Shown piece by piece: positions 2,726-45,284 of a stretch of DNA of 64,000 nucleotides. The stretch lies in the NCBI GenBank assembly GCA_963662795.1, contig OY759746.1, forward strand, positions 640,001 through 704,000, read 5' to 3'. Each line of letters begins with the position of its first letter. Within the stretch, counting starts at the first letter, position 1. Source of the DNA: Spirochaetia bacterium. Lineage in GTDB: Bacteria > Spirochaetota > Spirochaetia > CADAEX01. The notes under the pieces were generated by a model. The model was not told where the DNA came from. It was given only the letters and a program-made list of their open reading frames with translations, and did not search any database. Position numbers and translations under genes: made by a program.

Positions 2726-3910
2726 TTAACATTTGTAAATAGCATCATTTATATCGGGAATTCTTTCAATAGCCTCCATTAATTTTTCTTCACTGTTAAC
2801 AAGTGCAATCCTTACACAATTATATGAATTCCTGCCATATGTTACTCCCGGTGTAACCAGTACCCGGCTTTTTTCCCATAACCTTTTACTGAAATCAAGT
2901 GAATTGGCAATTGGTATTTCAGCCCAAACATAAATGCCCCCATGCGGTGTATGGCATTTCCAGCCTTTTTTTTCAAGCAACGGGATTACGGCATCCCTTC
3001 TGTTTTGATATTTTTTCGACTGTTTTTCATGTATATTATTTTTAAAAAACAGTTCAAGTGCCTTTGCTCCCGCTATCTGTACAGGGGCAAAAACTCCTGT
3101 CGTATAATCAACAAGTGAGGCTCCATAATTCTGCACAATTTCAGGATTTCCGACAATACATGCCAACCTCCATCCTGCCAGATTAAATATCTTTGAAAAA
3201 GTGAAAATTTCAATTCCTGTATTTTTAGCTCCGTTTGCCTGTAAAAAACTGACAGGTTCTCTATTGTCAAATAGAATTTCACCATAAGCATTGTCATGAC
3301 AAACTATATAACCATTTTTTTCAGCAAGAGCGGTTATTTTGTTAAATAAATCAATGTTAATGGTTGTTCCTGTTGGGTTATGGGGGTAATTCAAGTATAA
3401 CAAATCGCAATCACTACGGTCAAAAGCAGCGATATCCGGATTGTAATCATTTGATGAATCAAGGGCATATTCAATTTCCAGACCCCTGGCAATTTTAGCA
3501 GCAATTCTATAGGTTGGATAGCATATATCGGGAAGAAGAACTCCTCTTCCTTCATTTACAAAATTCACTGATAGATCAATAATTGCCCTTTTGGACCCCA
3601 TAATCGGAATAATTTCTTTTTCAGGGTCAAGTGTTACATTATATCTTTTTTTATACCATTCAGCTACAGATTCCCTGAATAACATTACCCCCCATTTCCC
3701 GGCATATTTATGACTACTTTCTTTATGTACTTCCGAACATAAAGTTTGTATTACATCAATTTCAGGAGCACCATCAGGGGATCCGATAGTTAAATCATAC
3801 GTTATCTCTCCATTTTTTATGCTTTTTTTCATATCTTCAAGTATGTGAAAAATATTGGATTCATCCCCAAAACTATTAATCAATGAAGATTTAATATTGG
3901 TTTTCATCAT
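2726..3910 (-). CDS. Class I/II PLP aminotransferase (LL-DAP aminotransferase/MtnE-like)
   Basis: LNYPHNPTG, HDNAY, FSKIFNLAGWR (PLP Lys). Start moved to the ATG at 3910 following GGAG. Confidence 0.85.
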   Translation of the reverse strand: MMKTNIKSSLINSFGDESNIFHILEDMKKSIKNGEITYDLTIGSPDGAPEIDVIQTLCSEVHKESSHKYAGKWGVMLFRESVAEWYKKRYNVTLDPEKEIIPIMGSKRAIIDLSVNFVNEGRGVLLPDICYPTYRIAAKIARGLEIEYALDSSNDYNPDIAAFDRSDCDLLYLNYPHNPTGTTINIDLFNKITALAEKNGYIVCHDNAYGEILFDNREPVSFLQANGAKNTGIEIFTFSKIFNLAGWRLACIVGNPEIVQNYGASLVDYTTGVFAPVQIAGAKALELFFKNNIHEKQSKKYQNRRDAVIPLLEKKGWKCHTPHGGIYVWAEIPIANSLDFSKRLWEKSRVLVTPGVTYGRNSYNCVRIALVNSEEKLMEAIERIPDINDAIYKC

Positions 3911-3923
3911 CTTACTCCAGTTG

Positions 3924-4667
3924 CTATATATCAATGATATGGCTTAAAAATGCTTTTGTTCTGTCAGATCCATTACCGGTAAAAAATTCTTTTGGGCTTC
4001 TCGTCTCAACTATATTTCCATTATCAAAAAATGAAATATGAGACGACACTTCTCTGGCAAAACCCATCTCATGCGTAACCACGACCATAGTCATCCCTTT
4101 TTTAGCCAGATTTTTCATAACATCAAGTACTTCTTTTATCATTTCTGGATCCAGCGCTGAAGTTGGTTCATCAAATAAAATTACTTCCGGATCCATGGCA
4201 AGAACCCTGATAATGGCTGTACGCTGTTTCTGTCCGCCTGAAAGCTGATATGGATATAAATCAGTTTTATCTGCAAGACCCACTGATTGAAATAGGCTGA
4301 TAGCCTTTTCTTCTACATTTTTTTTATCCCTTTTTAATATTTTAACCGGGGCAAGAAGTACATTTTCCATAGCCGTTAAATGAGGAAACAATTCAAAATG
4401 CTGAAAAACCATTCCTATTTTAGTTCTGATTCTTCTGATGTTTTTTTTATCAAGTATTTCATCTTTATAAACAATTTCACCGTCATTGATTTTTTCAAGC
4501 CCATTAATGCAATGGAGCAAAGTACTTTTCCCGGAACCGCTTGGACCGCAAATAACATGGACATCGCCTTTGCAGACATTTAAGTCAACACCTTTCAGTA
4601 TTTCCTGATGACCATATTTTTTATGTATATTTTTTATTCTCAGAATTGGTTTTTCATTGTTGTTCAT
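3924..4667 (-). CDS. Polar amino-acid ABC transporter ATPase (GlnQ-like)
   Basis: [28 protein letters not shown]. Confidence 0.93.
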
Positions 4668-4686
4668 ATCAAAAACTCCTTAATAT

Positions 4687-5340
4687 TTAAAACTGCCCGA
4701 TCATTTTCATTTTACCTTTTTTTTCAAAAAATCTTGCAGCAGTGGATAATGTATGACAAAGAATAAAATACAGAAGCATTATATAAATAAATATAATATG
4801 AGGATTCCCGTATGTTTCCATTATTTGTGTACCCATACGGGTTATTTCTACATACCCAATTGCCGAACACATTGCTGTTGATTTTATCAGCAGTATCAGC
4901 TGCCCGATTAAGGCAGGCATGGTCTGATATAAAACCTGTGGTAAAATTATATGCCACATTATCTCAAAGGTATTCATACTTAGTGATTTTCCGGCACTGA
5001 ATTGCCCTGCACTTATTCCAATTATTCCACCACGTATTATTTCAGCAACATAGGCAGTATTAAAAAGAGTAAGAGTAACAGTACTTGAAATAAAAATATT
5101 TCTTACAGGCAGGCCAAAAAAAACAAGTAATAACAGTATAAGGAAAGGGGTACCTCGCATAAACCCAATATATGCTGAAAGTATCTGGTCAACGACAGGG
5201 ATTCGCCTCGATCGGATAAATCCGACAATAATTCCAAAAATAAATGAAAAGAGAAGCGCAGTTAGGGATAGTTTCAGCGTATAAGGAAGTCCTTTTATTA
5301 TTAATAGCCTTATTGCTATAATATGTTTATCTATATCCAT
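4687..5340 (-). CDS. Polar amino-acid ABC transporter permease
   Basis: RGTP, AYVAEIIRGGI motif. Confidence 0.9.
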   Translation of the reverse strand: MDIDKHIIAIRLLIIKGLPYTLKLSLTALLFSFIFGIIVGFIRSRRIPVVDQILSAYIGFMRGTPFLILLLLVFFGLPVRNIFISSTVTLTLFNTAYVAEIIRGGIIGISAGQFSAGKSLSMNTFEIMWHIILPQVLYQTMPALIGQLILLIKSTAMCSAIGYVEITRMGTQIMETYGNPHIIFIYIMLLYFILCHTLSTAARFFEKKGKMKMIGQF

Positions 5341-6001
5341 TATTCGCCCCGCTTTTTAGATAATATTTTTGAATGATATATACTGCCAACTGAAGACTCC
5401 AGAATGTAATATTGTAGAAAATTGCAGCTCCTAAAAAAGTAGTTCCAGGTATCAGATACATACTGTTTAAATATCTTGATGCTGATGTTAACTCTGCTAT
5501 TGCCACAAGCGTTAATAATGAAGTGTCCTTTAAAATATATGAACTTTGCCCGATAAGGCTAGGAAATATACTTTTTAACGTTTGCGGCAATATAACATAT
5601 CTTAATGATTGTAAATTACTGAAACCCAGTGCCAGACTTGCCTTTTTCTGTCCGGGAGAAACAGCTTCGATACCGCCTCTTACAATTTCTGCTATAAAAG
5701 CACTTTCATTCAAAGTAATGGCCAGGATACCTGCAACTGATGCCGGCAGCATTATACCAATATATGGAAGCCCGTAATACATCAGGTATAACTGCACTAT
5801 AAGAGGTGTTTCCCGGAAAAGATCAATATACCATTTAAAAATATTTTTAATAACCGGAAGTCTGAAACTGCATAATATTCCTAAAAAGAAACCAATGATG
5901 ATTGATAACAATATACAAATAAATGTAAATTTTATAGTAACGGCAAATCCATTTAAAAATATTGGGAAAAACCGTATAAAAAGTTTTAAATTAAATTCCA
6001 T
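5327..6001 (-). CDS. Polar amino-acid ABC transporter permease
   Basis: RETPLIVQL, AFIAEIVRGGI, LKDTSL. Confidence 0.9.
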   Translation of the reverse strand: MEFNLKLFIRFFPIFLNGFAVTIKFTFICILLSIIIGFFLGILCSFRLPVIKNIFKWYIDLFRETPLIVQLYLMYYGLPYIGIMLPASVAGILAITLNESAFIAEIVRGGIEAVSPGQKKASLALGFSNLQSLRYVILPQTLKSIFPSLIGQSSYILKDTSLLTLVAIAELTSASRYLNSMYLIPGTTFLGAAIFYNITFWSLQLAVYIIQKYYLKSGANNGYR

Positions 6002-6073
6002 AATACTTCCATTGTTAATTATGTTGCTGCCGGTATATAAAAATCACAGCAGCAACACAACATAATTATTGAA

Positions 6074-6919
6074 TTATATTGATCCCAGCTTACTGTCAGG
6101 GTCCCAGTCCCTATTCATCCACTTCTTATAAAGTTCAGCATATTTTCCGGAAAGTTTGATCTCCTGAAGAAACAAGTCAATACTGTTTTTAAACCCCCAC
6201 TCTCCGTACCCTACAGCAAATCCATATGTCTCTGTTTCATAGAATCCTTCAGGAATTAATTTAAATTCTCCGGGATAAAGCTTAAACATATCTGATGCAG
6301 CAATAGCGGATTCCATAACACAATCAATTCTGCCTGTCTTCAATGCCTCAGACCATTCCATTTTTGACTGAAATATTTTTAAATTTGCCTTTGGGAATTT
6401 TTCCTGAATTAATTTTATATAAACATTCCCTTCAGTTGAAGCAATAGTCATATTTGAATTATTTAAATCAGCGTATTTTTTTACATTTGATTTAACCGGG
6501 AGTATTGCCACTGTGCCGGTGATTAAATAGGGATCGCTTAATGCAATACTTACAGTTCTTGGAATCGAACGGGTCATATGAGCTGCAACAATATCAAAAT
6601 CCCCTTTTAACAGTCCGGGGATGAGAGCTGACCAGTCAACATCCTTAAATTCAACTTTAACACCTAATTTTTCCGCATATAAATTGATCAGGTCAATTAC
6701 AAGTCCCTCGATATTGCCGCTTTCGGGATTGATAAAACCGATAGGCGGAAATTTTGCTCTTACCCCTACCACAATTTTACCATTTTCCAAAACTGTTTTA
6801 AGTGTATCCTTTGCTATTACATTTTCTCCGGACTTCGAATCATTTGCACCGCACCCTGTAAAAAAAGACAGAGCAACAGCAACTGACAACATGATTGCAA
6901 AAAGTTTGAATTTTCTCAT
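6074..6919 (-). CDS. Amino-acid ABC transporter substrate-binding lipoprotein (family 3)
   Basis: Lipobox FTGC, WSALIPGL..GDFD, Y..LYKKW; GGAGG before the ATG at 6919. Confidence 0.9.
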   Translation of the reverse strand: MRKFKLFAIMLSVAVALSFFTGCGANDSKSGENVIAKDTLKTVLENGKIVVGVRAKFPPIGFINPESGNIEGLVIDLINLYAEKLGVKVEFKDVDWSALIPGLLKGDFDIVAAHMTRSIPRTVSIALSDPYLITGTVAILPVKSNVKKYADLNNSNMTIASTEGNVYIKLIQEKFPKANLKIFQSKMEWSEALKTGRIDCVMESAIAASDMFKLYPGEFKLIPEGFYETETYGFAVGYGEWGFKNSIDLFLQEIKLSGKYAELYKKWMNRDWDPDSKLGSI

Positions 6920-6981
6920 AAAAACCTCCATTAAAAATTTTTCATTTTATTACTTAAGAGCTCTATTAAAAGGCTCTTGTA

Positions 6982-7875
6982 TTAACCTAAAATATTATAA
7001 TTTTCCAGTAATATTTTTATGCTTCTGTCTATTTCGACATCAGGAACAACTGCGGGTAACCTGTTGTTTCCGACTGATAGATCTTTTAAATAAAGAGCTC
7101 TTTTCACTAATGCAGGGGCATAACCAAGCTTATATAATGATTCACGGAAAGAAGATAATCTGCTTTGAGCTTTTTCAGCCTCAACCATGTTCCCATCAGT
7201 AGACGATTTATAAATCAGGTTAATCCATTCAGGAACAACATTGGCAAGGCCGGAAACACATCCGGTGGCTCCAAGCTGAAAACCTTTTAAAATCAGATTA
7301 TCCGGCCCGGTATATATTTCAAAATCTTTTTTTCCGTTATCCCTGATAGAACAGTACGCTTTCATATTTTCAATATTCCCGCTGGTATCTTTTATTCCCC
7401 TGAAATTCTCATGTTCAGAAAGACGGGCTACAGTTGCAACATCAACAGGATTATGGGTAAGATTTGGTATATCATATAAATAAACAGGCGTATTAAGTGA
7501 ATCAGCAAGCATGGTAAAATGCTGGTAAATTCCTTCCTGAGTACATTTAATAAAATAAGGAGTAATTGCAGCAATTCCGTCAACTCCGCATCTTTCATAT
7601 TCCCTTGCAAGCCTTATTGTTTCAAATGTTGAAGGGTATCCGGCATTGGCGAATACTTTTACCCTCCCCGCAGCTTCGTTAACCACAGTTTCAACAATTT
7701 TGACCCTCTCTTCAAAAGAAAGTGCAGAAAAATCACCGTTCGTGCCGGAGCAGAAAATATTATTTCCGGCATTGATTTGTTTTCTTACCTGCTTTCTTAA
7801 GGAATCATAATTAACTGTTTCATCGTTGTTATAGCATGTAACTAAAGCCGTAAATGGCTGGGTCGTTTTAATCAT
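6982..7875 (-). CDS. DapA/NAL-family aldolase/lyase (probably not DHDPS)
   Basis: GTNGD replaces GTTGE; YLYDIP; GIKDTSG carries the Schiff-base Lys. Confidence 0.85.
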   Translation of the reverse strand: MIKTTQPFTALVTCYNNDETVNYDSLRKQVRKQINAGNNIFCSGTNGDFSALSFEERVKIVETVVNEAAGRVKVFANAGYPSTFETIRLAREYERCGVDGIAAITPYFIKCTQEGIYQHFTMLADSLNTPVYLYDIPNLTHNPVDVATVARLSEHENFRGIKDTSGNIENMKAYCSIRDNGKKDFEIYTGPDNLILKGFQLGATGCVSGLANVVPEWINLIYKSSTDGNMVEAEKAQSRLSSFRESLYKLGYAPALVKRALYLKDLSVGNNRLPAVVPDVEIDRSIKILLENYNILG

Positions 7876-8896
7876 TATTCCCTCCCAGTTTTATAGCATA
7901 ATCTATTGCATTTATCATACTGGTCTCATTTGCCGTACCCTTACCCGCCTTGCCGAAAGCTGTCCCATGATCAACAGAACACCTGATTATTGGCAGTCCG
8001 AGGGTAATGTTGACACCGGAGACATCAAGCCATTTGTTTTTTTCCTGATCAAAAACAAAACCAATAAGCTTAAGCGGTATATGCCCCTGATCATGATACA
8101 TGCATACCACCATGTCAAACTGACCTCCCCTGGCCTTTGAGAAAACAGTATCTGCAGGAAGAGGTCCTGTTACATTTATACCTTCTGATAACGCTTTTTC
8201 AATTGCCGGAGTTATTTCTTCAATCTCTTCCCTTCCGAACATTCCATTTTCACCGGCATGGGGATTTAACCCCGCTACAGCAATACGCGGATTTACAAAT
8301 CCCATTTTTTTCAGGACTTTATCCGCAAGACAGATTACATTATATACTCTTTCCTTTTTAACTTTTTTACAGGCTTCCATCATCGATACATGTGTTGAAA
8401 CATGCACAACCATTAACCCTTCACCCGCAAGCATCATCGTGTAATCTTTTGTTCCCGTAAAATGAGCATATATTTCAGTATGTCCTGCGTAATGGAATCC
8501 TGCCAAATTGATTGATTCCTTATTTATTGGCGCGGTTACCGTAGCATCAATTTCTTTATTTATGGCAAACTCAATGGTTTTTTTTATGGATTCAAATGCT
8601 GCACGTCCGCATTCTGCAGAAACTTTTCCGAATTCAAATTCTCCTGTTTTACAGAGTGAATGCTCATAAACATCCAAAAATCCATGCCTGTATATCCCTT
8701 TTTCAATTTTATCAATTGAATTTATTCTCAGATCAGCACCAGCTATTTTATTAGCCTGTTGCATTATATCCGAGCTTCCAATTACAAGAGGGTTGCATTT
8801 ATCATAGATAGCTTTTTTATTTAAAGCTTTTATGATAATTTCAGGGCCTATACCTGCAGGATCTCCCATTGTAATGCCGATTAAAGGTTTTCTCAT
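7868..8896 (-). CDS. pdxA: PdxA/PdxA2 (4-phospho-threonate / 4-hydroxythreonine-4-P dehydrogenase)
   Basis: GDPAGIGPE, GHTE, LNPHAGE, MYHDQGHIPLK, SVDHGTAF; clustered with a DUF1537 kinase. Confidence 0.92.
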   Translation of the reverse strand: MRKPLIGITMGDPAGIGPEIIIKALNKKAIYDKCNPLVIGSSDIMQQANKIAGADLRINSIDKIEKGIYRHGFLDVYEHSLCKTGEFEFGKVSAECGRAAFESIKKTIEFAINKEIDATVTAPINKESINLAGFHYAGHTEIYAHFTGTKDYTMMLAGEGLMVVHVSTHVSMMEACKKVKKERVYNVICLADKVLKKMGFVNPRIAVAGLNPHAGENGMFGREEIEEITPAIEKALSEGINVTGPLPADTVFSKARGGQFDMVVCMYHDQGHIPLKLIGFVFDQEKNKWLDVSGVNITLGLPIIRCSVDHGTAFGKAGKGTANETSMINAIDYAIKLGGNND

Positions 8897-8898
8897 TT

Positions 8899-10059
8899 TT
8901 ATCCCCTTAATACCTTTTTATAAATATTTTCAATATCACTTACTGTCATCTCTTTCGGATTATTATCCAGAAGTCTTCTGACATTAAAAGCTGATTCTGA
9001 TAACGAAGGTATATCACTGACAGGAATATTAAATTTATCAAAGCTTTCCTGTATTGCAAGATCATCAACAAGTCCATATAAATGCCAGATAAATAAATCA
9101 GCTTTATCCCCAGTTTTCATATGTTTATCAGCAATTCCGGCAGTTTCTGCAGCAATTGCGAGTTTATCGATTATTTTTTCCTTGTTGAAATCCATTACCG
9201 GTGCAAGCAGTACTGCATTTGCAACTCCATGCGGTACCCTGTATTTTCCTCCAAGAGGGTATGAAAGGGCATGTACCGCGGTTGTGCCGGAAGATGCAAT
9301 TGCCGCTCCGCCGTAAAAAGAGGCAAGCAGCATCGAAGATCTGGCTTCTATATTGGAACCTTCAATAAAAGATTTTTTTAAAGAAGAAAGTATGAGCCTG
9401 ATTCCTTCCAGCGCTATCATATCACTGAACAGATTTGCCTTTTTTGATATATAGCATTCCAGAACATGGCATAGGGCATCAACGCCTGTCGATGCAGTGA
9501 GGTGTTTCGGAAGAGATACAGTAAGCTGGGGATCAAGAATTACATAGTCAGGAAGAAAAAATCTGCTGATAATACCTTTTTTGATATTTTCTCCCCTTAT
9601 TGCAATAATTGAATTTGGGGTAGCTTCAGAGCCTGTTCCTGAAGTAGTCGGTATCATGACTACCGGTATCCCTCTCTCATTTACTCCGTTTTCAATTATT
9701 TCAGAAACACTTGAGTTGTTTTTAAGCATAACCGATATCAATTTTGCAGTATCCATCACACTGCCGCCACCTACCGCAATTATCAGGTCAATTCTCATGC
9801 CAAACAAGTTTTTATTTATTCCTGTAACTTCATCATCATACGGCTCTGCAGGAATACCATCGATAATTATTATATTGCCAGCAATAGTCTTGATATTGTT
9901 CAGTACCAAATCACAAATACCAGATTTTCTAACGCCCTGATCAGTCAGTAATATTATTTTTCCGTCTTTAATATTTTTTGAAATTTCGTTTAATTTTGAA
10001 ATCTCTCCAAAGCCGAAAAAAATATTGCCTGGAAGAGATGAACTGAATTTATCTGACAT
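8899..10059 (-). CDS. Iron-containing alcohol dehydrogenase
   Basis: GGGSVMD, PTTSGTGSE, DALCH, HALSY, HGVAN. Confidence 0.9.
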   Translation of the reverse strand: MSDKFSSSLPGNIFFGFGEISKLNEISKNIKDGKIILLTDQGVRKSGICDLVLNNIKTIAGNIIIIDGIPAEPYDDEVTGINKNLFGMRIDLIIAVGGGSVMDTAKLISVMLKNNSSVSEIIENGVNERGIPVVMIPTTSGTGSEATPNSIIAIRGENIKKGIISRFFLPDYVILDPQLTVSLPKHLTASTGVDALCHVLECYISKKANLFSDMIALEGIRLILSSLKKSFIEGSNIEARSSMLLASFYGGAAIASSGTTAVHALSYPLGGKYRVPHGVANAVLLAPVMDFNKEKIIDKLAIAAETAGIADKHMKTGDKADLFIWHLYGLVDDLAIQESFDKFNIPVSDIPSLSESAFNVRRLLDNNPKEMTVSDIENIYKKVLRG

Positions 10060-11317
10060 TATCAATGACTCCTATTAATTGCAGTATTTTAATTATTGCG
10101 TCTTCTTCTCCAAAACCGCCGGCTTTTGTGACTATGGATATATCCCCCATATTTTCTTTTCGTATCAATTTCATAAGAGGTATTCCGGGAAGTATTTCCC
10201 TGTCAAATATGACACATTCGGTTTCAAGAAATGATACAACTTCATAGGCAGTATCACCTCCTGTAATAAAAAGCGTATCAATACCATATTCAGCGATGAG
10301 ATCCCTTATAAGTTTGCCCAGAAAACCAGAAACAACTTTACCGTCTTCCGGCTGGGGAAGATTTTTCTTAATCGGGGTTTTATCACTGCTGGCTGTTGTT
10401 CTGATCACTACAGGCAGCAAATTGCTGTTTTCAGTTATTTTAGCTTTTATCCGCTCAATTTCTCCGGCAGGATCTGTTTTCATTCTAGCAATATCAAGAA
10501 GAATTGAAAGATTTTCAACTTCTCTGGCAAATCTGTCACCCTGAAGATTGCTTGTCCTGGTAAGACTTCCAATAACTATTAGAACTTTTTTCCCTATTGA
10601 TATTTTTTTCCCATTATGATTGTCCTGTTTTGAACATAATGCCTCTGCCATACCTGAAGATCCTGCGATGAGTATTTCACTGTCAGTTTCTATTGAAGAA
10701 ATAATTTTCAAATCATTTATCGTTTCTGCATCTGCAATAATTACCTTTTTACCGTTGTTAATCTGATTGTAAAATTCCTTAAGAAAATCAGCCTCACCTT
10801 TCCTGATTACAGAAAGACCGATATGCCCTGTCTGATGGCGGAATCTGTTTTCAATTATTTTAACAACATTTGAGCTGATTACAGGATTAAATGGATCATC
10901 ACCGGATTCAGTGTTTTTGACAGGCATACCGTTTGCATAGCATATCCCGTTTTTTACTGTTCTGTTGTTACGGGGAGCAGAAGGAGCAACTAATGCGGCC
11001 CTAAAACCGGCAGCATCGATAATAGCTTCAATCTCGATACCTATATTGCCCCTCATAGTTGAATCAATTTTTTTAAATATCTGCTTTATTCCATGGGAAA
11101 CACAATCAGCAGCCACATCGTAAACTTTTTTATAGGCAGTTGCTTCATCATCAAATCTTGATTCAGTATTAATTACCTTTACATCACATTCTTTATATTT
11201 TGATGCCGTATTGTTATTAATAAATAATACCGGCATATATCCGGCTTTGCGGTAATGAATGGCAGAATCGGCGGAACCTGTAAAATCATCAGCTATTATA
11301 CATTTTTCTGGTTTCAT
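10049..11317 (-). CDS. Four-carbon acid sugar kinase (DUF1537/DUF1357, DtnK-like)
   Basis: IADDFTGS, KKIDSTMRGN, TGGDTA, TKAGGFG. Confidence 0.92.
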   Translation of the reverse strand: MKPEKCIIADDFTGSADSAIHYRKAGYMPVLFINNNTASKYKECDVKVINTESRFDDEATAYKKVYDVAADCVSHGIKQIFKKIDSTMRGNIGIEIEAIIDAAGFRAALVAPSAPRNNRTVKNGICYANGMPVKNTESGDDPFNPVISSNVVKIIENRFRHQTGHIGLSVIRKGEADFLKEFYNQINNGKKVIIADAETINDLKIISSIETDSEILIAGSSGMAEALCSKQDNHNGKKISIGKKVLIVIGSLTRTSNLQGDRFAREVENLSILLDIARMKTDPAGEIERIKAKITENSNLLPVVIRTTASSDKTPIKKNLPQPEDGKVVSGFLGKLIRDLIAEYGIDTLFITGGDTAYEVVSFLETECVIFDREILPGIPLMKLIRKENMGDISIVTKAGGFGEEDAIIKILQLIGVIDNVR

Positions 11318-11331
11318 TATGGCAACTTAAC

Positions 11332-11348
11332 TGCATTTTCTGTGCCAA
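11332..11348 (-). promoter_or_regulatory. sigma54 -24/-12 promoter
   Basis: Minus strand TTGGCAC-AGAAA-ATGCA, adjacent to a sigma54 activator gene. Confidence 0.8.
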
Positions 11349-11453
11349 TTTATGAATCCAGGAATTTATTAATGATAACTCCATACATTATAATTATTTA
11401 TTTATATTTTTTTTATTAAATATTTATTGAATCACAATACTAATGGTGATTTT

Positions 11454-13337
11454 TTAATCATCTATGATAGATAATTCACCAGCTAATTTCTTTTTCAAAG
11501 TGTTCCTGTCAATGACAAGACGTCTGGCTGTTCGTGATATATTCCGGTTTTCTTCTTCAAATATTTTTTTTATAATGCGGTTTTCTATTTCTGCAAGCGA
11601 ACCTTCACCTATGCTGTAATTACCAGATAAGGCTGAAGCAGTAAATAATCTCTCAAGATTTTTTTCTGCATACTCATTCCCATTCATATTATAAAGAATA
11701 GAAAACCGTTCCGCCATATTTTCCAATTCACGGATATTTCCCGGCCAATAGTATTTTTTCAGTATTTTTTTAAAACTACTGCTGAGTGAATTAAGTGCAA
11801 TTGTATTCCCGCTATATTTTTTAATATATATCTCGAATATCGGAAGTATATCCTCTACCCGCTGCCGAAGGGGAGGAATATTTATTTCGAGGACATTCAA
11901 CCTGTAATAAAGGTCTTTTCGGAATTTTCCCTTTAAAATTTCTTCTTCAAGGTTCCGGTTTGTAGCTGCTATGATTCTAACATTGATCGGGATAATCTTG
12001 TCATCGCCTATTCTTCTGATCTCTTTTTCCTGAAGAACACGAAGAAGTTTTGTCTGCAGATTTATATCAATTTCACTGATTTCATCAAGAAAGATTGTTC
12101 CATTATGCGCAGCCTCAAAAAGCCCATGGTGACCGCTCTTTGAGGCACCGGTAAAAGCACCCTCGATATAACCGAAAAGTTCACTTTCAAGAAGATTATC
12201 AGTCAAGGCAGCACAATTTACAGCTATAAACGCTCCGTCGTGAACAGGACTGTTGTTATGAATGCTTTGTGCAACAAGTTCCTTACCAGTACCGGTCTCT
12301 CCATATATTATAATATTACTCCTGTTTCTGCTGTACTGTTTTGCTATGGCAATGCAGTCTTTCATACAGCTGGATACATAGAAAATATCCTGAAAAGTGT
12401 ACCTGGCCTGATGACCTTTGTTTTGAAGCTGTTTCCGTATTGTTATTTCAAAGTCACGGATTGTCTCGGATTTCAGAAATGAAATAACAAGTCCTTCTGT
12501 TTTTCCACTTATAATAATGGCACGTGTATTATAGGCAAAACTCCCGCAGGAAAGATTAAAAATACCACCTGCCGATAGATTGTTTTTTTTAATCAAATTC
12601 TCATATTCTATTGACGGAATAATATCGCTAATATGTTTTCCTGGAATTGTTCTGAATTCTGTGCCAAGATAAGCCAATCCCTGCTGGTTAATCTGCCTTA
12701 TTATCCCTTTTTTATCTATATTGATGATACCTTCACTTACTGAATTCAAAATAGCATTTATTTTAGCAGCATTTTCCAGATGGTCTTTTGTACTTTTATA
12801 GATCAGTACTGCTTTTTCAAAAGCTTCTTTTAACGCTTCTCTGCCTGATTCTATCAAAAGATAATTCAAATTATATTCTTCAGCTTTTTTTACTGATATT
12901 ACATCCCCGATAACAATATCAGCTTCCTTGTCTGCAATTTCAGACATTATATCAGGCAAATCCTGATCACTTTCAAGAGTAAATATTTCAGCAGGAATAT
13001 CCAGGATATTGCAAATGGCTTTTGCAGGATGCGTTAAATTTTCAAAACCTACTATTGCTATTTTTTTTCTCAATCCTTTTAATTTCTTAAGATTTTCAAG
13101 AAGATCATAAAAAGAAACTCCTACTTCAATTACAGGTATTTCCAGCTGTTTTTTTATAAGGCTGGCAGTTCCGCCCCTGCTTACAAAAATACATCCGTGT
13201 TCATACCTGTATCTGTCAGCAATTTTAACTCCTTCAGAAAGGTCTCCAATGTGAGTCTTGATCTCTATATCATAATCATCAGCAATACTATCCGCAATAT
13301 TCTTAAGTTTTTCATATGGAGCTATAAATACAATCAT
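11454..13337 (-). CDS. PrpR-type sigma54-dependent activator (PrpR_N-PAS-AAA-HTH)
   Basis: SRGGTA, GETGTGKE, GAFTGA, WPGNIREL, C-terminal Fis HTH. Start moved to the ATG at 13337, downstream of a TGnTATAAT box. Confidence 0.92.
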   Translation of the reverse strand: MIVFIAPYEKLKNIADSIADDYDIEIKTHIGDLSEGVKIADRYRYEHGCIFVSRGGTASLIKKQLEIPVIEVGVSFYDLLENLKKLKGLRKKIAIVGFENLTHPAKAICNILDIPAEIFTLESDQDLPDIMSEIADKEADIVIGDVISVKKAEEYNLNYLLIESGREALKEAFEKAVLIYKSTKDHLENAAKINAILNSVSEGIINIDKKGIIRQINQQGLAYLGTEFRTIPGKHISDIIPSIEYENLIKKNNLSAGGIFNLSCGSFAYNTRAIIISGKTEGLVISFLKSETIRDFEITIRKQLQNKGHQARYTFQDIFYVSSCMKDCIAIAKQYSRNRSNIIIYGETGTGKELVAQSIHNNSPVHDGAFIAVNCAALTDNLLESELFGYIEGAFTGASKSGHHGLFEAAHNGTIFLDEISEIDINLQTKLLRVLQEKEIRRIGDDKIIPINVRIIAATNRNLEEEILKGKFRKDLYYRLNVLEINIPPLRQRVEDILPIFEIYIKKYSGNTIALNSLSSSFKKILKKYYWPGNIRELENMAERFSILYNMNGNEYAEKNLERLFTASALSGNYSIGEGSLAEIENRIIKKIFEEENRNISRTARRLVIDRNTLKKKLAGELSIIDD

Positions 13338-13472: not shown

Positions 13473-13820
13473 ATGAAACTGCTTGTGTTTGTCTTAAACA
13501 AGGAAGAGCTTCTCGAAGAAGTGCTTGCCGCATACCTTGAGGCAGGCATTCCAGGCGCTACAATTCTTGATTCCGAAGGAATGGGGAGATTTCTAACCTA
13601 TGAAGTTCCCCTTTTTGCCGATTTCAAGGAATTCATGAAGGGAAATAAACCATACAATAAAACAATTTTCTCTGTCATTCAGAACGAAAAATCGATTCCC
13701 CGTCTTGAAAAACTGCTTGATAAGGTCTGCGGCGGCCTTGATGAACCTGGAACAGGAATTCTCTTCACTCTCCCTTTAGATTATGCCAGGGGCCTTGTGC
13801 CTGCAGATACGGAGGATTGA
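13473..13820 (+). CDS. PII-like (GlnB-fold) protein, transporter-associated subfamily
   Basis: 115 aa, GATILDSEGMG and GTGILFTLP; lacks the canonical GlnB T-loop YRGxEY. Confidence 0.75.
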   Translation: MKLLVFVLNKEELLEEVLAAYLEAGIPGATILDSEGMGRFLTYEVPLFADFKEFMKGNKPYNKTIFSVIQNEKSIPRLEKLLDKVCGGLDEPGTGILFTLPLDYARGLVPADTED

Positions 13821-13821
13821 T

Positions 13822-14283
13822 TTGCTTAAATTATCCAGGATGCTTGATAAAGAGTGTATTAAACTTGAGATGAGCGCTGTCAGGAAAAGGGACGCGATTT
13901 CGGAACTCCTCGAAGTCCTTAAAGATAACGGGAAAATAGATGATACAATACCGCTGCTTAACGATATCTGCGAGAGGGAAAAATCAGCTTCAACCGGAAT
14001 AGGCTATGGAATAGCCATCCCGCATAAAATTGTTGACGGGCTTGAAAAAACAATAATAGCGTTTGGAAGAAAAAAAGAGGGGATCAATTTTGATTCAATT
14101 GACGGGAAACCGGTCTCCCTCTTTTTCCTTATACTGGGGAAGGAAGGAAGCACGGGAAGTCATCTGCGGCTCTTAAGCAAACTGGCAAGACTTCTTCATG
14201 ACCCTGATTTCAGGGAATCACTTTCCAGCGCGCAGTCGGCTGAGGATATCATTAACGCCTTTGCCCGGGAGGATGATGAATGA
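13822..14283 (+). CDS. PTS EIIA (Fru/Ntr-type), stand-alone
   Basis: RE..ASTGIGYGIAIPH (phospho-His), FDSIDGKPV, HLRLLSKLARLL. TTG start at 13822 after GGAGG. Confidence 0.9.
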   Translation: MLKLSRMLDKECIKLEMSAVRKRDAISELLEVLKDNGKIDDTIPLLNDICEREKSASTGIGYGIAIPHKIVDGLEKTIIAFGRKKEGINFDSIDGKPVSLFFLILGKEGSTGSHLRLLSKLARLLHDPDFRESLSSAQSAEDIINAFAREDDE

Positions 14284-14792
14284 ACCTGGCTGCAAAATGG
14301 AAAATCACAAGGATATTACTTACTTCAGTTTATCTTTTCGCGGGGTGGATGCTGTTTACGGGAAGCCTTAATCCCTTTTCCATGGCTATGGGCCTTTTTT
14401 TTTCAGTATTAACAGCGCGTTTAACCTACAGCCTCTTCATAGATGAAAAAGAGGCTGAAAGACGGGGGCTTGTCTTTAAGGTTCATTTTCTTGTTTTTTA
14501 TCTTTTATTTCTATTATTTAAAATGTATGCCTCGAGCTTTGCGGTTTTATACAATGTCATAAGGGGCAACATAAATCCGAGAGTTGTTCATTTCAGAACA
14601 AGGCTCAAATCCGACATTGCGCGCGTTATCCTTACAAACTCAATTACGCTTACTCCCGGAACAATAACCTTAAGCCTTGACGATGACCATCTGATAGTCC
14701 ACTGGCTTGAGGCAAAGACAACACATTCGCGCTATGCCGGGGAACTTATCAAGGGTAAAATGGAAAAAATACTGAAAAGGATTTTTGTATGA
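14280..14792 (+). CDS. mnhE: Mrp/Mnh antiporter subunit E (MbhA-like)
   Basis: NSITLTPGT, LIVHW. Confidence 0.88.
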   Translation: MNLAAKWKITRILLTSVYLFAGWMLFTGSLNPFSMAMGLFFSVLTARLTYSLFIDEKEAERRGLVFKVHFLVFYLLFLLFKMYASSFAVLYNVIRGNINPRVVHFRTRLKSDIARVILTNSITLTPGTITLSLDDDHLIVHWLEAKTTHSRYAGELIKGKMEKILKRIFV

Positions 14793-15061
14793 ATACGCAG
14801 ACCGCATTCAGCGTTATTATCTATCTTTTTATCGGTTCCGGCGTTATAAGCCTTTACCGGGTTATCTCCGGCCCTACAGCAGCAGACCGCCTGATCGGGT
14901 TAAATATTATATCAGCCCAGATACTTGCGGTTCTGGTTCTGTTCGCTGCTATGGAAAACCTGCATGTTTATCTTGATGTGGCGCTTGTCTACGATATATT
15001 CGGATTTGTCGGCATACTCGCTATCGCAAGGTATACCGGAAAAAAAGAAGAGTTAAAATGA
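14789..15061 (+). CDS. mnhF: Mrp/Mnh subunit F (MbhB-like)
   Basis: GPTAADRLIG, LDVALVY. Confidence 0.88.
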   Translation: MNTQTAFSVIIYLFIGSGVISLYRVISGPTAADRLIGLNIISAQILAVLVLFAAMENLHVYLDVALVYDIFGFVGILAIARYTGKKEELK

Positions 15062-15366
15062 CAGAATGGATAGTCTTCGGTTTTCTGATTCTGGGAGCCG
15101 TATTTAATCTGATGGGGCTTCTCGGCGTCCTTATTTTTCCTGATCCCTATACGCGGCTTCAGGCTTCATCGACATGCAGCACTACCTCGGTTATGTCAGT
15201 ATTTATTGCGGCAATGATAGAATCAGGCATCTCGGCCGTTACCGGAAAGATACTTGTAATAACCCTGTTCTTTTTCATTTCAAGCCCGGTATCAGCCCAC
15301 ATCATAGCGTGTTACGCCTGGAATAATGAAATAATCCCCTGGCGGCGAAAGGGGGGACCGGAATGA
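15058..15366 (+). CDS. mnhG: Mrp/Mnh subunit G (MbhC-like)
   Basis: FPDPYTRLQA, SPVSAH. Confidence 0.88.
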   Translation: MTEWIVFGFLILGAVFNLMGLLGVLIFPDPYTRLQASSTCSTTSVMSVFIAAMIESGISAVTGKILVITLFFFISSPVSAHIIACYAWNNEIIPWRRKGGPE

Positions 15367-15596
15367 CAACACTGCTTCTTGCCCTGCACGTCCTGCTTGC
15401 TGTTATAATCCTTGTATCACGTAATATGCTGACCGCGGTAATCCTCCTTGCGGTTTTAAGCCTTTTCAGCAGCCTTCTGTTCTTCATACTGCACGCGCCT
15501 GATGTCGCACTCACAGAGGCGGCCGTAGGAGCAGGCGTCTCTACTTTTCTTTATATCTGGATAATACGGAAAACTGAAATGGAGATAAAACCTTGA
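15363..15596 (+). CDS. DUF4040 / MbhD-like membrane subunit
   Basis: APDVALTEAAVGAG. Confidence 0.85.
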   Translation: MTTLLLALHVLLAVIILVSRNMLTAVILLAVLSLFSSLLFFILHAPDVALTEAAVGAGVSTFLYIWIIRKTEMEIKP

Positions 15597-15847
15597 AAAG
15601 GCTGTTTCATATTCTGATAATTGCTGTATTCTCACTTTTGCTTATCTTTGCTCTTCTCTTCGCTGACCACAGGGCGCCGGATACGGCAAAACAGTTTCTT
15701 CTTGAAAAAAGCTACGTTGAAACGGGGGCGGCAAACCTGGTTACGGCGATATACCTCGGATACAGGGCTTTTGATACGCTTGGAGAGACAATTGTGCTTA
15801 TCGCCTCTGTTACAGGCGTTGTATTTCTTATGGGAAGCAGACAATGA
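15593..15847 (+). CDS. MbhE-like membrane subunit
   Basis: NLVTAIYLGYRAFDTLGE. Confidence 0.85.
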   Translation: MKRLFHILIIAVFSLLLIFALLFADHRAPDTAKQFLLEKSYVETGAANLVTAIYLGYRAFDTLGETIVLIASVTGVVFLMGSRQ

Positions 15848-16266
15848 AAAAAACAGATATACTTGATGTCGTATCACGTAAATTGGCTCCTTTCATACTG
15901 CTCTTCGGATTTTACCTGCTGACATACGGGCACCTCTCCCCCGGCGGAGGGTTTCAGGGAGGGGTTACAATAGCATCGGCTGTAATCCTGCTGTTTCTTG
16001 CCAGGGGGACCGCAAGGGTCCTTGAGGTGTTTCCCCTTAAATCTGTTCATTACACCGAAGCATACGGATTTTTTGCATTTTTATTGACAGGTATTGCGGG
16101 TCTTGTTTACGGACAGGGTTTTCTATCCAGTTTTCTGAAAGTACAGGGGACCGGAGCAATCCCCGGCGGCGGCACAATCTTATTACTCAACATTATAATC
16201 GGGCTTAAGGTAGGCGCAGGCATAACGCTTATCTGCTATTACCTTTTCAAAGAGAAAGAGGAATAA
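15844..16266 (+). CDS. mnhB: Mrp/Mnh subunit B (MbhF-like)
   Basis: GHLSPGGGFQGG, IGLKV. Confidence 0.88.
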   Translation: MKKTDILDVVSRKLAPFILLFGFYLLTYGHLSPGGGFQGGVTIASAVILLFLARGTARVLEVFPLKSVHYTEAYGFFAFLLTGIAGLVYGQGFLSSFLKVQGTGAIPGGGTILLLNIIIGLKVGAGITLICYYLFKEKEE

Positions 16267-44991: not shown

Positions 44992-45284
44992 CAGATTTTC
45001 TCCCAGCTGTAGGATGTTATCCCGCAGGCCCTGTAAACAGCTGCGGCAAGCCGGGCTTCAATTGTGCAGTCAAGGGCGCCTTTGTCATTAAGCTGTACCA
45101 CAGCTTCATCAATGCCAAGTACTTCAAGTTTTTCCTTTACTACTTTTTTTATCTGGCTTCCGAACTGCCTCTCTACAATACTCTGAAGAAGTATTTCAAC
45201 CCCTTCCCCCGGGTTTTCCCTTACCGTGACAAGGACATCGCTTGACTCAAGGGTTCCGGCCATTCCGGTTTTCACTACTTTCAT
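44991..45284 (-). CDS. citD: Citrate lyase acyl carrier protein
   Basis: AGTLESSD (prosthetic-group Ser), DKGALDCTI.AR. Confidence 0.93.
   Translation of the reverse strand: MKVVKTGMAGTLESSDVLVTVRENPGEGVEILLQSIVERQFGSQIKKVVKEKLEVLGIDEAVVQLNDKGALDCTIEARLAAAVYRACGITSYSWEKI

What the first reader, a model, noticed from the sequence alone, without database searches (positions are those of the whole stretch)
2726..13337. Candidate new catabolic pathway for a polyhydroxy amino acid: DUF1537 kinase/PdxA2 cluster wired to an amino-acid ABC importer and an aminotransferase
Seen: one tightly packed sigma54 operon of kinase-FeADH-pdxA-DapA-like-SBP-permease x2-ATPase-aminotransferase, with its own PrpR-type activator. 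Established: DUF1537 kinases plus PdxA2 convert D-threonate/D-erythronate to DHAP + CO2 and also act on 4-hydroxy-L-threonine. The characterised clusters use acid-sugar transporters. Inference: here the imported substrate carries an amino group. It may be transaminated to a 2-keto(-3-deoxy) acid, cleaved by the DapA-like lyase (GTNGD variant) to pyruvate + tetrose, oxidised, then phosphorylated and decarboxylated. A simpler alternative is 4-hydroxythreonine uptake.
Basis: partly seen in the sequence, partly recalled or inferred. Interest (0 to 1): 0.7.

Follow-up and report, generated by a model that had tools for sequence, protein, structure and literature searches.

The report
Amino-acid-fed variant of tetronate pathway
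A ten-gene, sigma-54-controlled operon that probably imports an unusual hydroxylated amino acid and breaks it down to pyruvate and a glycolysis intermediate, using a four-enzyme back end that many related bacteria couple to other importers.

Summary
Ten co-directional, tightly spaced genes encode a PrpR_N/sigma-54 activator, a DUF1537 kinase, an Fe-ADH, a PdxA2-type dehydrogenase, a DHDPS-family enzyme, a polar-amino-acid ABC importer and a class I aminotransferase.

The importer and aminotransferase recur with the kinase module in two unrelated MAGs.

New here: kinase, Fe-ADH, PdxA2 and DHDPS-like form a back end that is common in the window's class. PdxA2 relatives occur in 47 of 401 genomes. 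The back end is joined to interchangeable front ends:
- amino-acid ABC with aminotransferase (plus Alr-type racemase);
- TctABC or TRAP with D-2-hydroxyacid dehydrogenase (plus LarA-type epimerase);
- Opp-type ABC with a sialidase-like BNR_2 protein.

This pattern points to a shared 2-oxo acid as the DHDPS-like enzyme's substrate.

My inferred route is: 2-oxo-3-deoxy C7 diacid gives pyruvate plus 2,3-dihydroxy-4-oxobutanoate, then D-threonate, then 4-phospho-D-threonate, then DHAP plus CO2. The pectin sugar Dha fits that 2-oxo acid. The window would then import its 2-amino analogue. The substrate is unproven.

Plain 4-hydroxythreonine uptake is disfavoured. New variant of a known kind.

The parts
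11454..13337 (-). Sigma-54 enhancer-binding activator (PrpR_N sensor, AAA+ sigma-54 domain, HTH_8). The ORF is open to 13373; the likely start is ATG 13337.
   Evidence: Pfam. NCBIfam PrpR scores 353.6, below its cut-off of 499. Start codon. EBPs of the same family stand in 12 of the 23 other loci clustered. All 7 further ones scanned carry PrpR_N plus the sigma-54 domain.
11332..11347 (-). Sigma-54 -24/-12 promoter-like element TGGCAC-N5-ATGCA. It ends 14 nt before the kinase ATG, which predicts a leader of about 4 nt.
   Evidence: The same element stands at the same distance before the kinase gene in related loci.
10049..11317 (-). DUF1537-family kinase, a putative D-threonate/D-erythronate 4-kinase.
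   Evidence: Pfam SBD_N + NBD_C. Best NCBIfam hit is D-threonate kinase at 244.8 bits, below the 450 cut-off. PDB hits 4xfm, 4xfr, 1yzy and 3dqq score 88-115 bits.
8899..10059 (-). Group III iron-containing alcohol dehydrogenase. Proposed reductase of the C4 aldehyde product.
   Evidence: Pfam Fe-ADH + ADH_Fe_C. All NCBIfam hits are below cut-off: ErcA 259, lactaldehyde reductase 245, 4-hydroxybutyrate DH 218. PDB best is 1,3-propanediol oxidoreductase at 178.8 bits. An Fe-ADH of this BLAST family stands in 20 of the 24 loci clustered.
7868..8896 (-). PdxA2-type decarboxylating dehydrogenase, putatively acting on 4-phospho-D-threonate/erythronate to give DHAP + CO2.
   Evidence: Pfam PdxA 369 bits. 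PDB: PdxA2-type chains 4jqp, 2hi1 and 6e85 score 284-308 bits against about 180 bits for PdxA1 chains. It is the only PdxA in the genome. PdxJ and PdxS were not found.
6982..7875 (-). DHDPS-family class I (Schiff-base) enzyme. Proposed pyruvate-forming aldolase for a 2-oxo-3-deoxy acid; it is not DapA.
   Evidence: Pfam DHDPS. In the alignment to 3hij the Lys and Tyr133 equivalents are kept, GTTGE reads GTNGD, Tyr107 is Phe and Arg138 is Leu. A canonical DapA lies elsewhere in the genome. It is 47-59% identical to partners in nine related clusters.
6074..6919 (-). Family-3 solute-binding lipoprotein of the ABC importer. Member of a small family.
   Evidence: Pfam SBP_bac_3. 21 other clusters at 39-60% identity among 5.8 billion proteins. 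Closest solved relatives are arginine-binding-type proteins. The TxxxxR arginine, an extra arginine (20 of 21) and an acidic residue after GRxDxx are conserved.
5327..6001 (-). ABC permease 1 (polar amino acid type).
   Evidence: Pfam BPD_transp_1; NCBIfam HEQRo_perm_3TM above cut-off. 57-65% identical in L013-L017.
4687..5340 (-). ABC permease 2 (polar amino acid type).
3924..4667 (-). ABC ATPase (GlnQ/HisP type).
2726..3910 (-). Class I PLP aminotransferase. Its nearest models are DapL/AlaT-type, all below cut-off. Proposed to convert the imported amino acid to the 2-oxo acid.
   Evidence: Pfam Aminotran_1_2. NCBIfam DapL 333 bits against a 593 cut-off. 62% identical in L014 and 54% in L017. 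Start codon.

Best explanation
The region is one sigma-54-dependent catabolic operon of nine genes. Its own PrpR_N-type activator is encoded just upstream.

SHOWN (family assignments and conservation): a polar-amino-acid ABC importer, a class I aminotransferase, a DHDPS-family Schiff-base enzyme, an Fe-ADH, a DUF1537 kinase and a PdxA2-type dehydrogenase travel together here and in two unrelated MAGs. The last four form a back end that is common in the window's class and is joined to different front ends.

INFERRED mechanism:
1. The importer takes up an alpha-amino acid with a gamma-hydroxyl.
2. The aminotransferase makes the 2-oxo-3-deoxy acid.
3. The DHDPS-like enzyme cleaves it to pyruvate plus a four-carbon aldehyde that already carries a carboxylate (2,3-dihydroxy-4-oxobutanoate).
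4. The Fe-ADH reduces this with NADH to D-threonate (or D-erythronate).
5. The kinase makes the 4-phosphate.
6. PdxA2 oxidises and decarboxylates it to DHAP + CO2, giving the NADH back.

[quoted passage not shown] By my reading of its configuration its C4 fragment reduces to D-threonate. The window's substrate would then be the 2-amino analogue, 2-amino-2,3-dideoxyheptarate.
For: 1.

2. The whole gene set recurs in two other genomes.
- L014 (a MAG titled Sphaerochaetaceae): DapA-like 40%, PdxA 56%, Fe-ADH 41%, kinase 31%, EBP 47%, SBP 55%, AT 62%, followed by an Alr-family racemase.
- A MAG titled Anaerolinea: kinase, Fe-ADH, PdxA, DapA-like, a non-orthologous class I AT (24% identical), SBP, two permeases, ATPase, racemase and EBP. 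These lie on two contigs that overlap by 55 nt.

3. The back end is widespread. PdxA at 49% identity or more occurs in 47 of 401 genomes of the class. Of 21 contexts fetched (L034, L065-L084), 13 hold kinase, Fe-ADH, PdxA and a close DapA-like gene. Two more hold a distant DHDPS-family gene.

4. Front ends sort with transporter type.
- D-2-hydroxyacid dehydrogenase occurs in 9 loci: 7 with TctABC, 1 with TRAP, 1 with an Opp-type ABC. Six loci in all carry a LarA-type isomerase: 5 of these 9 (L034, L074, L077, L081, L083) plus L084. That dehydrogenase never occurs with an AT.
- The 4 SBP_bac_5-ABC loci that have the close DapA-like gene lack the dehydrogenase. Three of them carry a BNR_2 sialidase-like gene.
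- This pattern fits enzymes that deliver one common 2-oxo acid.

5. The window's DapA-like protein is 47-59% identical to those of the Tct-type and BNR_2-type clusters.

6. Several hints point to a distal carboxylate.
- The Arg138 equivalent, recalled as the aspartate-semialdehyde carboxylate binder of DHDPS, is kept in 9 of 9 closest relatives.
- The second-best NCBIfam model is the DHDPS-type aldolase for a C7 diacid, TIGR02313.
- The hydroxy-acid version uses TctABC carboxylate importers.
- An extra Arg in the SBP binding loop is present in 20 of 21 family members.

7. PdxA is of the PdxA2/D-threonate-4-phosphate type, and the kinase's best model is D-threonate kinase.

8. PdxJ and PdxS were not found, so the role is catabolic.

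9. The sigma-54 element and PrpR_N activators are shared across front-end types.

10. Dha's structure and occurrence come from passages read.
Against: - No biochemical or expression data exist. No RNA run was available.
- The window's own DapA-like protein has Leu where its 9 closest relatives have Arg. Its substrate or activity may therefore differ.
- All enzyme-specific NCBIfam models are below cut-off, except the generic pdxA model and, by 0.5 bit, dapA.
- The SBP's nearest solved relatives bind arginine-type ligands.
- The proposed amino acid is not a compound I know to occur in nature.
- In L017 and L018 orthologous SBP (+AT in L017) sit next to a different DHDPS-family gene (29-32% identical). 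In L017 there is no kinase or PdxA within 10 kb. The importer/AT pair is therefore not strictly tied to this back end.
- In L014/L080 a TctABC set lies 2.5 kb away.
- The L014 racemase passes the alanine-racemase model, which suits the rival 'alanine/pyruvate' reading.
- The BNR_2 proteins resemble GH33 sialidases only weakly. The PDB search listed no DHA-hydrolase chain.
- The kinase is only 31-37% identical among clusters.
Confidence: 0.5

Rival explanations
1. The imported amino acid is a C7 mono-acid. Transamination gives a 2-keto-3-deoxyheptonate (for example DAH). The lyase gives pyruvate plus a free tetrose, which is oxidised to a tetronate and then phosphorylated and decarboxylated.
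For: It uses the same gene set. A DHDPS-family lyase could cleave a 2-keto-3-deoxy-aldonate. D-erythrose would give D-erythronate, a substrate I recall for PdxA2 pathways.
Against: No aldehyde dehydrogenase or lactonase occurs in the operon, and none recurs in the 24 loci clustered. The only redox enzyme besides PdxA is an Fe-ADH, whose relatives interconvert alcohols and aldehydes. The route would yield two NADH with no sink. The Arg138 equivalent in relatives and the TctABC front ends suggest a second carboxylate.
Confidence: 0.12
2. 4-Hydroxythreonine (or another 2-amino-2-deoxytetronate) is imported. It is either phosphorylated and oxidised directly by the kinase and PdxA2, or transaminated to 2-oxo-tetronate and reduced to a D-tetronate first.
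For: DUF1537 kinases phosphorylate 4-hydroxythreonine, and PdxA2 can carry out the PdxA reaction (passages read). The transporter is of the amino-acid type.
Against: The DHDPS-like enzyme has no role, and in the direct route the Fe-ADH has none either. Yet an Fe-ADH of this family stands in 20 of 24 and a DHDPS-family gene in 17 of 24 clustered loci, and 13 of the 21 fetched class contexts hold all four genes. PdxJ was not found, so the PdxA product of 4-phosphohydroxythreonine would be a dead end. The BNR_2/Opp-type and Tct-type front ends on the same back end do not fit a C4 amino acid.
Confidence: 0.1
3. Two functions share one promoter. The back end degrades an acid sugar taken up elsewhere. 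The ABC importer, aminotransferase and (in relatives) Alr racemase handle alanine or another common amino acid, linking the pyruvate produced to L- and D-alanine or supplying amino groups.
For: The L014 racemase passes NCBIfam's alanine racemase model at 292.6 bits against a 168 cut-off. The AT also resembles alanine transaminase models. L080 has a TctABC set nearby. G000 holds at least 8 TctA genes.
Against: In the window and in the Anaerolinea MAG the amino-acid ABC is the only transporter in the operon. The SBP belongs to a small, specific family and is not a housekeeping one: no relative above 34% identity in 40 related genomes. The strict pairing of AT with the amino-acid ABC and of 2-hydroxyacid dehydrogenase with carboxylate importers is hard to explain by a pyruvate sink. 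The hydroxyacid dehydrogenase is nearest to PGDH/glyoxylate reductase, not D-lactate dehydrogenase.
Confidence: 0.15
4. The imported compound is a cationic or diamino acid, such as a hydroxylated lysine, arginine, ornithine or diaminopimelate analogue. Its 2-oxo form is processed by the DapA-like enzyme as in a reversed lysine-biosynthesis step.
For: The SBP profile is closest to arginine-binding-type proteins. The AT's best models are LL-diaminopimelate aminotransferases. The DapA-like protein scores at the dapA cut-off.
Against: The same back end works with TctABC/2-hydroxyacid dehydrogenase and BNR_2 front ends, which do not suit diamino acids. An amino-bearing C4 product would end as an aminoketone phosphate with no PdxJ to use it. 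All DapL and DapA models are at or below cut-off, and DapA's key residues have changed.
Confidence: 0.08

Closest known systems
D-threonate / D-erythronate catabolism by DUF1537 kinases (DtnK/DenK) with PdxA2. Zhang et al. 2016 PNAS was not held and is recalled. It is cited in passages of PMC7954711 and PMC9997740, read.
   Same: A DUF1537 kinase sits next to a PdxA2-type dehydrogenase. The predicted end product is DHAP + CO2, and the role is catabolic rather than PLP synthesis.
   Different: Here the pair is fused to an Fe-ADH, a DHDPS-family enzyme, an amino-acid ABC importer and an aminotransferase under a sigma-54 activator. The tetronate is proposed to be made inside the cell, not imported. 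Both enzymes score below the equivalog cut-offs.
E. coli glucarate/galactarate lower pathway: GarL aldolase, GarR tartronate-semialdehyde reductase, GarK glycerate kinase (recalled).
   Same: The logic is the same: a 2-oxo-3-deoxy aldarate is split into pyruvate plus an aldehyde-acid, which is reduced to a hydroxy acid and phosphorylated.
   Different: The chain is one carbon longer (a C4 fragment instead of C3), so an extra decarboxylating step (PdxA2) is needed. All four enzyme families differ.
Sialic acid catabolism: sialidase plus N-acetylneuraminate lyase NanA, a DHDPS-family enzyme.
   Same: A DHDPS-family lyase stands beside a sialidase-like BNR protein and an importer in the sister clusters L065, L072 and L075.
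   Different: NanA models score only 115-131 bits against cut-offs of 281-382. No ManNAc-processing genes are present. The window itself has no BNR gene.
DapA (4-hydroxy-tetrahydrodipicolinate synthase) and DapL (LL-diaminopimelate aminotransferase).
   Same: These are the best-scoring named models for the lyase and the aminotransferase. The Schiff-base Lys and the Tyr133 equivalent are kept.
   Different: GTTGE reads GTNGD, Tyr107 is Phe and Arg138 is Leu in the window. The genome has a separate canonical DapA. DapL scores 333 bits against a 593 cut-off.
DHDPS-type 2,4-dihydroxyhept-2-ene-1,7-dioate aldolase (NCBIfam TIGR02313, 'HpaI-NOT-DapA').
   Same: It is a precedent for a DHDPS-fold enzyme that cleaves a C7 dicarboxylic 4-hydroxy-2-oxo acid into pyruvate plus an aldehyde-acid. 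It is the second-best model for the window's and relatives' enzymes.
   Different: It scores 138-187 bits against a 396.7 cut-off, so the window's enzyme is not a member. The proposed substrate also carries two more hydroxyls.
PrpR, the sigma-54 activator of propionate catabolism.
   Same: The architecture is the same: PrpR_N sensor, AAA+ sigma-54 domain and HTH_8.
   Different: It scores below the PrpR equivalog cut-off (353.6 against 499.2) and controls an unrelated operon.

Membership tests
DUF1537 kinase family | Two-domain architecture: SBD_N (PF07005) plus NBD_C (PF17042). | tested here: met
   182.9 and 89.4 bits, both above the gathering cut-offs.
D-threonate kinase DtnK (NCBIfam NF047819 equivalog) | Score at or above the curated cut-off of 450 bits. 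| tested here: not met
   244.8 bits. It is still the best of the three kinase models.
PdxA2 / D-threonate 4-phosphate dehydrogenase | Closer to PdxA2-type than to PdxA1-type proteins, and passing the equivalog cut-off (NF002891, 583 bits). | tested here: inconclusive
   PDB PdxA2-type chains score 284-308 bits against about 180 bits for PdxA1. NF002891 scores only 342.7 bits. The generic TIGR00557 pdxA model passes at 360 bits against a 290 cut-off.
PdxA of PLP biosynthesis | Works with PdxJ in the DXP-dependent pathway. | tested here: not met
   No PdxJ (PF03740) match in G000, which is 98% complete. No PdxS either.
DapA (DHDPS, TIGR00674) | Catalytic Lys161 and Tyr133; the Thr44-Thr45 GTTGE motif; Tyr107; and Arg138, which binds the aspartate-semialdehyde carboxylate. 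Residue roles are recalled. | tested here: not met
   Lys and Tyr133 are kept. The motif reads GTNGD, Tyr107 is Phe and Arg138 is Leu in the alignment to 3hij and to the genome's canonical DapA. The model score is 206.7 bits against a 206.15 cut-off.
N-acetylneuraminate lyase (NanA) | Score above the NCBIfam cut-offs (281 / 382 bits). | tested here: not met
   131.4 and 114.7 bits.
Polar amino acid ABC importer (PAAT type) | An SBP_bac_3 binding protein, two HEQRo-type permeases and a GlnQ/HisP-type ATPase. The binding protein keeps the Arg that holds the alpha-carboxylate and an acidic residue for the alpha-amino group. Residue roles are recalled. | tested here: met
   (HEQRo_perm_3TM above cut-off in both permeases). 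The Arg of T-x-x-x-x-R is invariant and an E/D follows GRxDxx in 21 of 21. Ligand binding itself was not tested.
LL-diaminopimelate aminotransferase DapL | Score above the equivalog cut-off (593 bits). | tested here: not met
   333.5 bits.
Sigma-54-dependent operon | An EBP with a sigma-54 interaction domain, rpoN in the genome, and a -24 GG / -12 GC promoter. | tested here: met
   EBP domain 226.5 bits. RpoN DNA-binding domain 187 bits. TGGCAC-N5-ATGCA stands before the kinase gene and is conserved in related loci. The transcription start was not measured.

The most novel reading that the evidence does not exclude
The four-gene back end (DHDPS-like aldolase, Fe-ADH, DUF1537 kinase, PdxA2) is the so far undescribed catabolic route for Dha, the seven-carbon keto-diacid of pectin RG-II and some algal walls. 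It would run through D-threonate to DHAP. The window's operon would feed this route with a natural amino acid that has not been described, 2-amino-2,3-dideoxyheptaric acid (2-amino-4,5,6-trihydroxypimelate). Sister clusters would feed it with the 2-hydroxy analogue or with Dha glycosides. A side claim is that these operons are transcribed from sigma-54 promoters as nearly leaderless mRNAs.
Probability: 0.22. Interest if true: 0.8.

Novelty: new variant of a known kind. Interest (0 to 1): 0.62.

Why it matters
DUF1537/PdxA2 pathways are known for imported four-carbon acid sugars. This operon and its many sister clusters suggest the pair is also the lower half of a longer pathway.

In that pathway a DHDPS-type lyase and an Fe-ADH would make the tetronate inside the cell from a larger 2-oxo acid. 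If that acid is Dha, this would give a directly testable route for one of the rare pectin (RG-II) sugars. I found no catabolic route for it in the library.

The amino-acid front end predicts a new natural hydroxy amino acid as a nutrient. The clear swap of front ends (aminotransferase, hydroxyacid dehydrogenase, glycosidase-like protein) on one back end is a compact example of modular pathway evolution. It also gives three independent handles for finding the substrate.

Tried and rejected
- A prophage next to the operon. I guessed this from ORF sizes. Pfam shows a PTS EIIA-2 gene and Mrp antiporter genes instead.
- Diaminopimelate or 4-hydroxy-DAP as substrate. This was considered because of the DapL-like and DapA-like scores. 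It gives no role to the kinase and PdxA2 and does not fit the Tct and BNR_2 sister clusters.
- 4-Hydroxyglutamate (HOG aldolase-like GSNGE motif, recalled). Glyoxylate gives no C4 acid.
- Tartrate or 3-hydroxyaspartate as the shared C4 substrate. This would need carboxylate reduction.
- Fe-ADH as L-threonate 3-dehydrogenase. By its abstract, the paper I opened describes an SDR enzyme, not an Fe-ADH.
- The first related-loci scan of genome contigs with the single SBP found nothing. The profile scan found 2 loci.
- SBP relatives: none above 34% identity in 40 related genomes. AT orthologues at E <= 1e-90: 1 of 401 genomes in the phylum sample, G000 only, and 1 of 258 in the order of G437, G437 only.
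- RNA evidence: no RNA holder was listed by the look-up of sequencing runs.
- Horizontal transfer by composition: cluster GC is 35.7% against a genome mean of 39.7% (sd 3.9). 16% of equal-sized windows are as low, so this is not telling.
- BNR_2 protein against solved structures: only weak GH33 sialidase matches, so no direct support for a Dha hydrolase.
- Zhang et al. 2016 and its supplements could not be read. Its genome-neighbourhood tables may already list DHDPS or Fe-ADH neighbours of DUF1537. The claim that the module is undescribed rests only on searches of the held library.

Full report
WHAT IS THERE

Ten ORFs lie head to tail on the minus strand between 2726 and 13373. Pfam assigns them as follows.
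- A PrpR_N + sigma-54 AAA+ + HTH_8 activator
- A DUF1537 kinase (SBD_N + NBD_C)
- An iron-containing alcohol dehydrogenase
- A PdxA-family dehydrogenase
- A DHDPS-family protein
- A family-3 solute-binding protein
- Two BPD_transp_1 permeases
- An ABC ATPase
- A class I/II aminotransferase

NCBIfam places every enzyme below the cut-off of its best specific model:
- D-threonate kinase 244.8 against 450
- D-threonate-4-phosphate dehydrogenase 342.7 against 583
- LL-DAP aminotransferase 333.5 against 593
- PrpR 353.6 against 499

The exceptions are the generic pdxA model (360 against 290) and dapA, which passes by half a bit (206.7 against 206.15).

Start-codon inspection favours ATG 13337, 10059, 6919 and 3910 for the activator, Fe-ADH, SBP and aminotransferase. 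From kinase to aminotransferase the junctions overlap or leave at most 72 nt.

A TGGCAC-N5-ATGCA element ends 14 nt before the kinase ATG. Alone it is no more than chance would give: 4 matches at one mismatch in the window against 11.1 expected. The genome has rpoN and 13 EBP-like genes, this one included.

IS THE IMPORTER/AMINOTRANSFERASE TIED TO THE KINASE?

The SBP belongs to a small family. There are 21 other clusters at 39-60% identity among 5.8 billion proteins. No relative exceeds 34% identity in 40 related genomes.

A profile scan found two genome loci and four close metagenome contigs.
- L014 (record titled a Sphaerochaetaceae MAG) holds DapA-like, PdxA, Fe-ADH and kinase on one strand. 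Diverging from them are EBP, SBP, two permeases, ATPase, AT (62% identical) and an alanine-racemase-family gene.
- In a MAG titled Anaerolinea the SBP contig (L013) starts with a different class I aminotransferase (24% identical). It carries the ABC genes, an Alr-family racemase and the EBP. A second contig (L024) carries kinase, Fe-ADH, PdxA and DapA-like in the window's order and runs off its end. The two contigs overlap by 55 nt.

The full set is thus conserved in three genomes. Once, the aminotransferase was replaced by a non-orthologue, which argues that transamination is needed.

Against a strict tie: in L017 and L018 orthologous SBP (+AT in L017) stand beside a different DHDPS-family gene (29-32% identical). 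L017 has no kinase or PdxA within 10 kb.

The set is rare. AT orthologues were found in 1 of 401 genomes sampled from the phylum and in 1 of 258 from the order of L014's genome. PdxA was found in 0 of 19 genomes of the window's own family.

THE BACK END IS A COMMON MODULE WITH SWAPPABLE FRONT ENDS

A relative in the same class (G028) has kinase, PdxA (60%), Fe-ADH (50%), a D-2-hydroxyacid dehydrogenase, a DapA-like gene, TctCBA, a LarA-type nickel-pincer isomerase and a LacI regulator. A perfect TGGCAC-N5-TTGC element stands before the kinase gene.

PdxA at 49% identity or more occurs in 47 of 401 genomes of the class. I fetched 20 further contexts, chosen from the 31 best-scoring matches of that search other than the window's own, and clustered their ORFs.

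Of the 21 contexts (L034, L065-L084):
- 13 hold kinase, Fe-ADH, PdxA and a close DapA-like gene;
- 2 hold a distant DHDPS-family gene instead;
- 4 hold the trio without one;
- 2 hold kinase and PdxA only.

L080 is the same locus as L014 and is counted once.

Front ends sort cleanly.
- The 2-hydroxyacid dehydrogenase occurs in 9 loci: 7 with TctABC, 1 with TRAP and 1 with an Opp-type ABC. Five of these 9 also carry a LarA-type gene. A sixth LarA-type gene lies in L084, which has no 2-hydroxyacid dehydrogenase.
- The 4 loci with an SBP_bac_5 ABC and the close lyase lack the dehydrogenase. Three of them carry a BNR_2 sialidase-like protein. One also carries esterases.
- The aminotransferase occurs only with the amino-acid ABC.

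The window's lyase is 47-59% identical to those of nine Tct-type, BNR_2-type and amino-type clusters. L014's lyase is 52% identical to G028's. All 7 further activators scanned have the PrpR_N sensor.

The simplest reading is that all front ends deliver one 2-oxo acid to the lyase:
- by transamination of a 2-amino acid;
- by oxidation of a 2-hydroxy acid, with a C2 racemase or epimerase in both of these cases;
- by hydrolysis of a glycoside of a 2-ulosonic acid.

WHAT THE BACK END PROBABLY DOES

PdxA here is of the PdxA2/D-threonate-4-phosphate type (284-308 bits against about 180 for PdxA1 structures). It is the only PdxA in a genome in which PdxJ and PdxS were not found. Its role is therefore catabolic.

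DUF1537 kinases act on four-carbon acid sugars and on 4-hydroxythreonine (passages read; the primary papers are recalled).

The lyase keeps the Schiff-base lysine and the Tyr133 equivalent but is not DapA. The Fe-ADH resembles propanediol, lactaldehyde and 4-hydroxybutyrate dehydrogenases.

For a single alcohol/aldehyde oxidoreductase to turn the lyase product into a kinase substrate, the aldehyde should already carry the carboxylate. In that case 2,3-dihydroxy-4-oxobutanoate is reduced to a tetronate. This makes the parent a seven-carbon 2-oxo-3-deoxy diacid, and the route is redox-neutral. It parallels the recalled GarL-GarR-GarK logic, one carbon longer.

Hints for a second carboxylate:
- the Arg138 equivalent is kept in 9 of 9 closest lyases;
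- TIGR02313, the DHDPS-type C7-diacid aldolase, is the second-best model;
- the hydroxy-acid version uses TctABC importers;
- the SBP binding loop has an extra arginine in 20 of 21 family members.

[quoted passage not shown] By my own reading of its configuration, which is an inference, its C4-C7 fragment reduces to D-threonate. That matches the best kinase and PdxA models. The sialidase-like proteins in sister clusters suit a 2-ulosonic acid glycoside. They match solved GH33 sialidases only weakly.

I found no paper in the held library that links heptulosaric acid to DUF1537, PdxA2, D-threonate or tetronates. I also found none on its catabolism. The key 2016 paper and all supplements could not be read.

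THE WINDOW'S OWN VERSION

On this reading the operon imports the 2-amino analogue of that acid and transaminates it.

Caveats:
- The window's lyase has Leu (codon CTT) where all nine close relatives have Arg.
- The SBP's nearest solved relatives are arginine binders.
- The predicted amino acid is not a compound I know from nature.
- There are no expression data.

VERDICT

My confidence:
- about 0.5 for the general mechanism;
- about 0.2-0.3 for Dha and its amino analogue;
- about 0.15 for the main rival, a co-regulated but separate alanine/pyruvate function.

This is a new variant of a known kind of pathway and is well suited to a direct biochemical test.

Noticed in passing
window 11317-11347, and upstream of the kinase gene in L024, L034, L065-L079: The sigma-54 -24/-12 element sits at a fixed, very short distance from the kinase start codon. 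Motif end to ATG is 11-15 nt in 18 loci, and there is no Shine-Dalgarno sequence. This predicts leaders of about 1-5 nt, that is, nearly leaderless sigma-54 transcripts. L014/L080 is the exception, with a 25-nt leader and GAGGTGA. The strict pattern matched 15 of 23 kinase genes, and 4 more by eye with TTGT or TAGC at -12.
   Followed up: partly
window 42556-52578: A second carboxylate cluster: aconitase-family protein, PrpF, TctC-TctB-TctA, a CitE-like HpcH/HpaI lyase and the citrate lyase alpha subunit CitF on the minus strand, with a divergent LysR regulator. It looks like a tricarboxylate (citrate/aconitate-type) utilisation locus.
   Followed up: partly
G000 whole genome: Neither PdxJ nor PdxS was found in a 98% complete single-contig genome. 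The organism may depend on vitamin B6 salvage.
   Followed up: partly
G000:C1 about 917000, 1652000, 1734000 and 1832000: Three to four paralogous DHDPS-family genes carry GTNGE and YNNPSVAAG motifs. Some lie next to D-2-hydroxyacid dehydrogenase and LarA-like genes. The genome holds at least 8 TctA, 3 LarA-like and 11 2-hydroxyacid-dehydrogenase matches. This suggests many hydroxy-acid catabolic clusters built on the same plan.
   Followed up: no
G000:C1 3726675-3734147: A second DUF1537 kinase (25.5% identical) lies about 5 kb from another class I aminotransferase-like gene (25.7% identical). Its context was not examined.
   Followed up: no
L076 and L078 (two genomes of one genus): The kinase, Fe-ADH and PdxA stand alone behind the sigma-54 element, without lyase or transporter. 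The trio may therefore be a functional unit of its own.
   Followed up: no
L017 8071-14151 and L018: Orthologous SBP, permeases, ATPase and AT (50-54% identical) pair with a different DHDPS-family gene (GSTGE motif, Cys at the Arg138 position) and a GntR regulator. In L017 an amidohydrolase and an M20 peptidase lie nearby. This may be a related amino-acid pathway with another lower half.
   Followed up: partly
window 13783-18304: A PTS EIIA-2 (nitrogen-PTS-like) gene directly precedes Mrp-type Na+/H+ antiporter genes, just upstream of the activator gene on the opposite strand.
   Followed up: no
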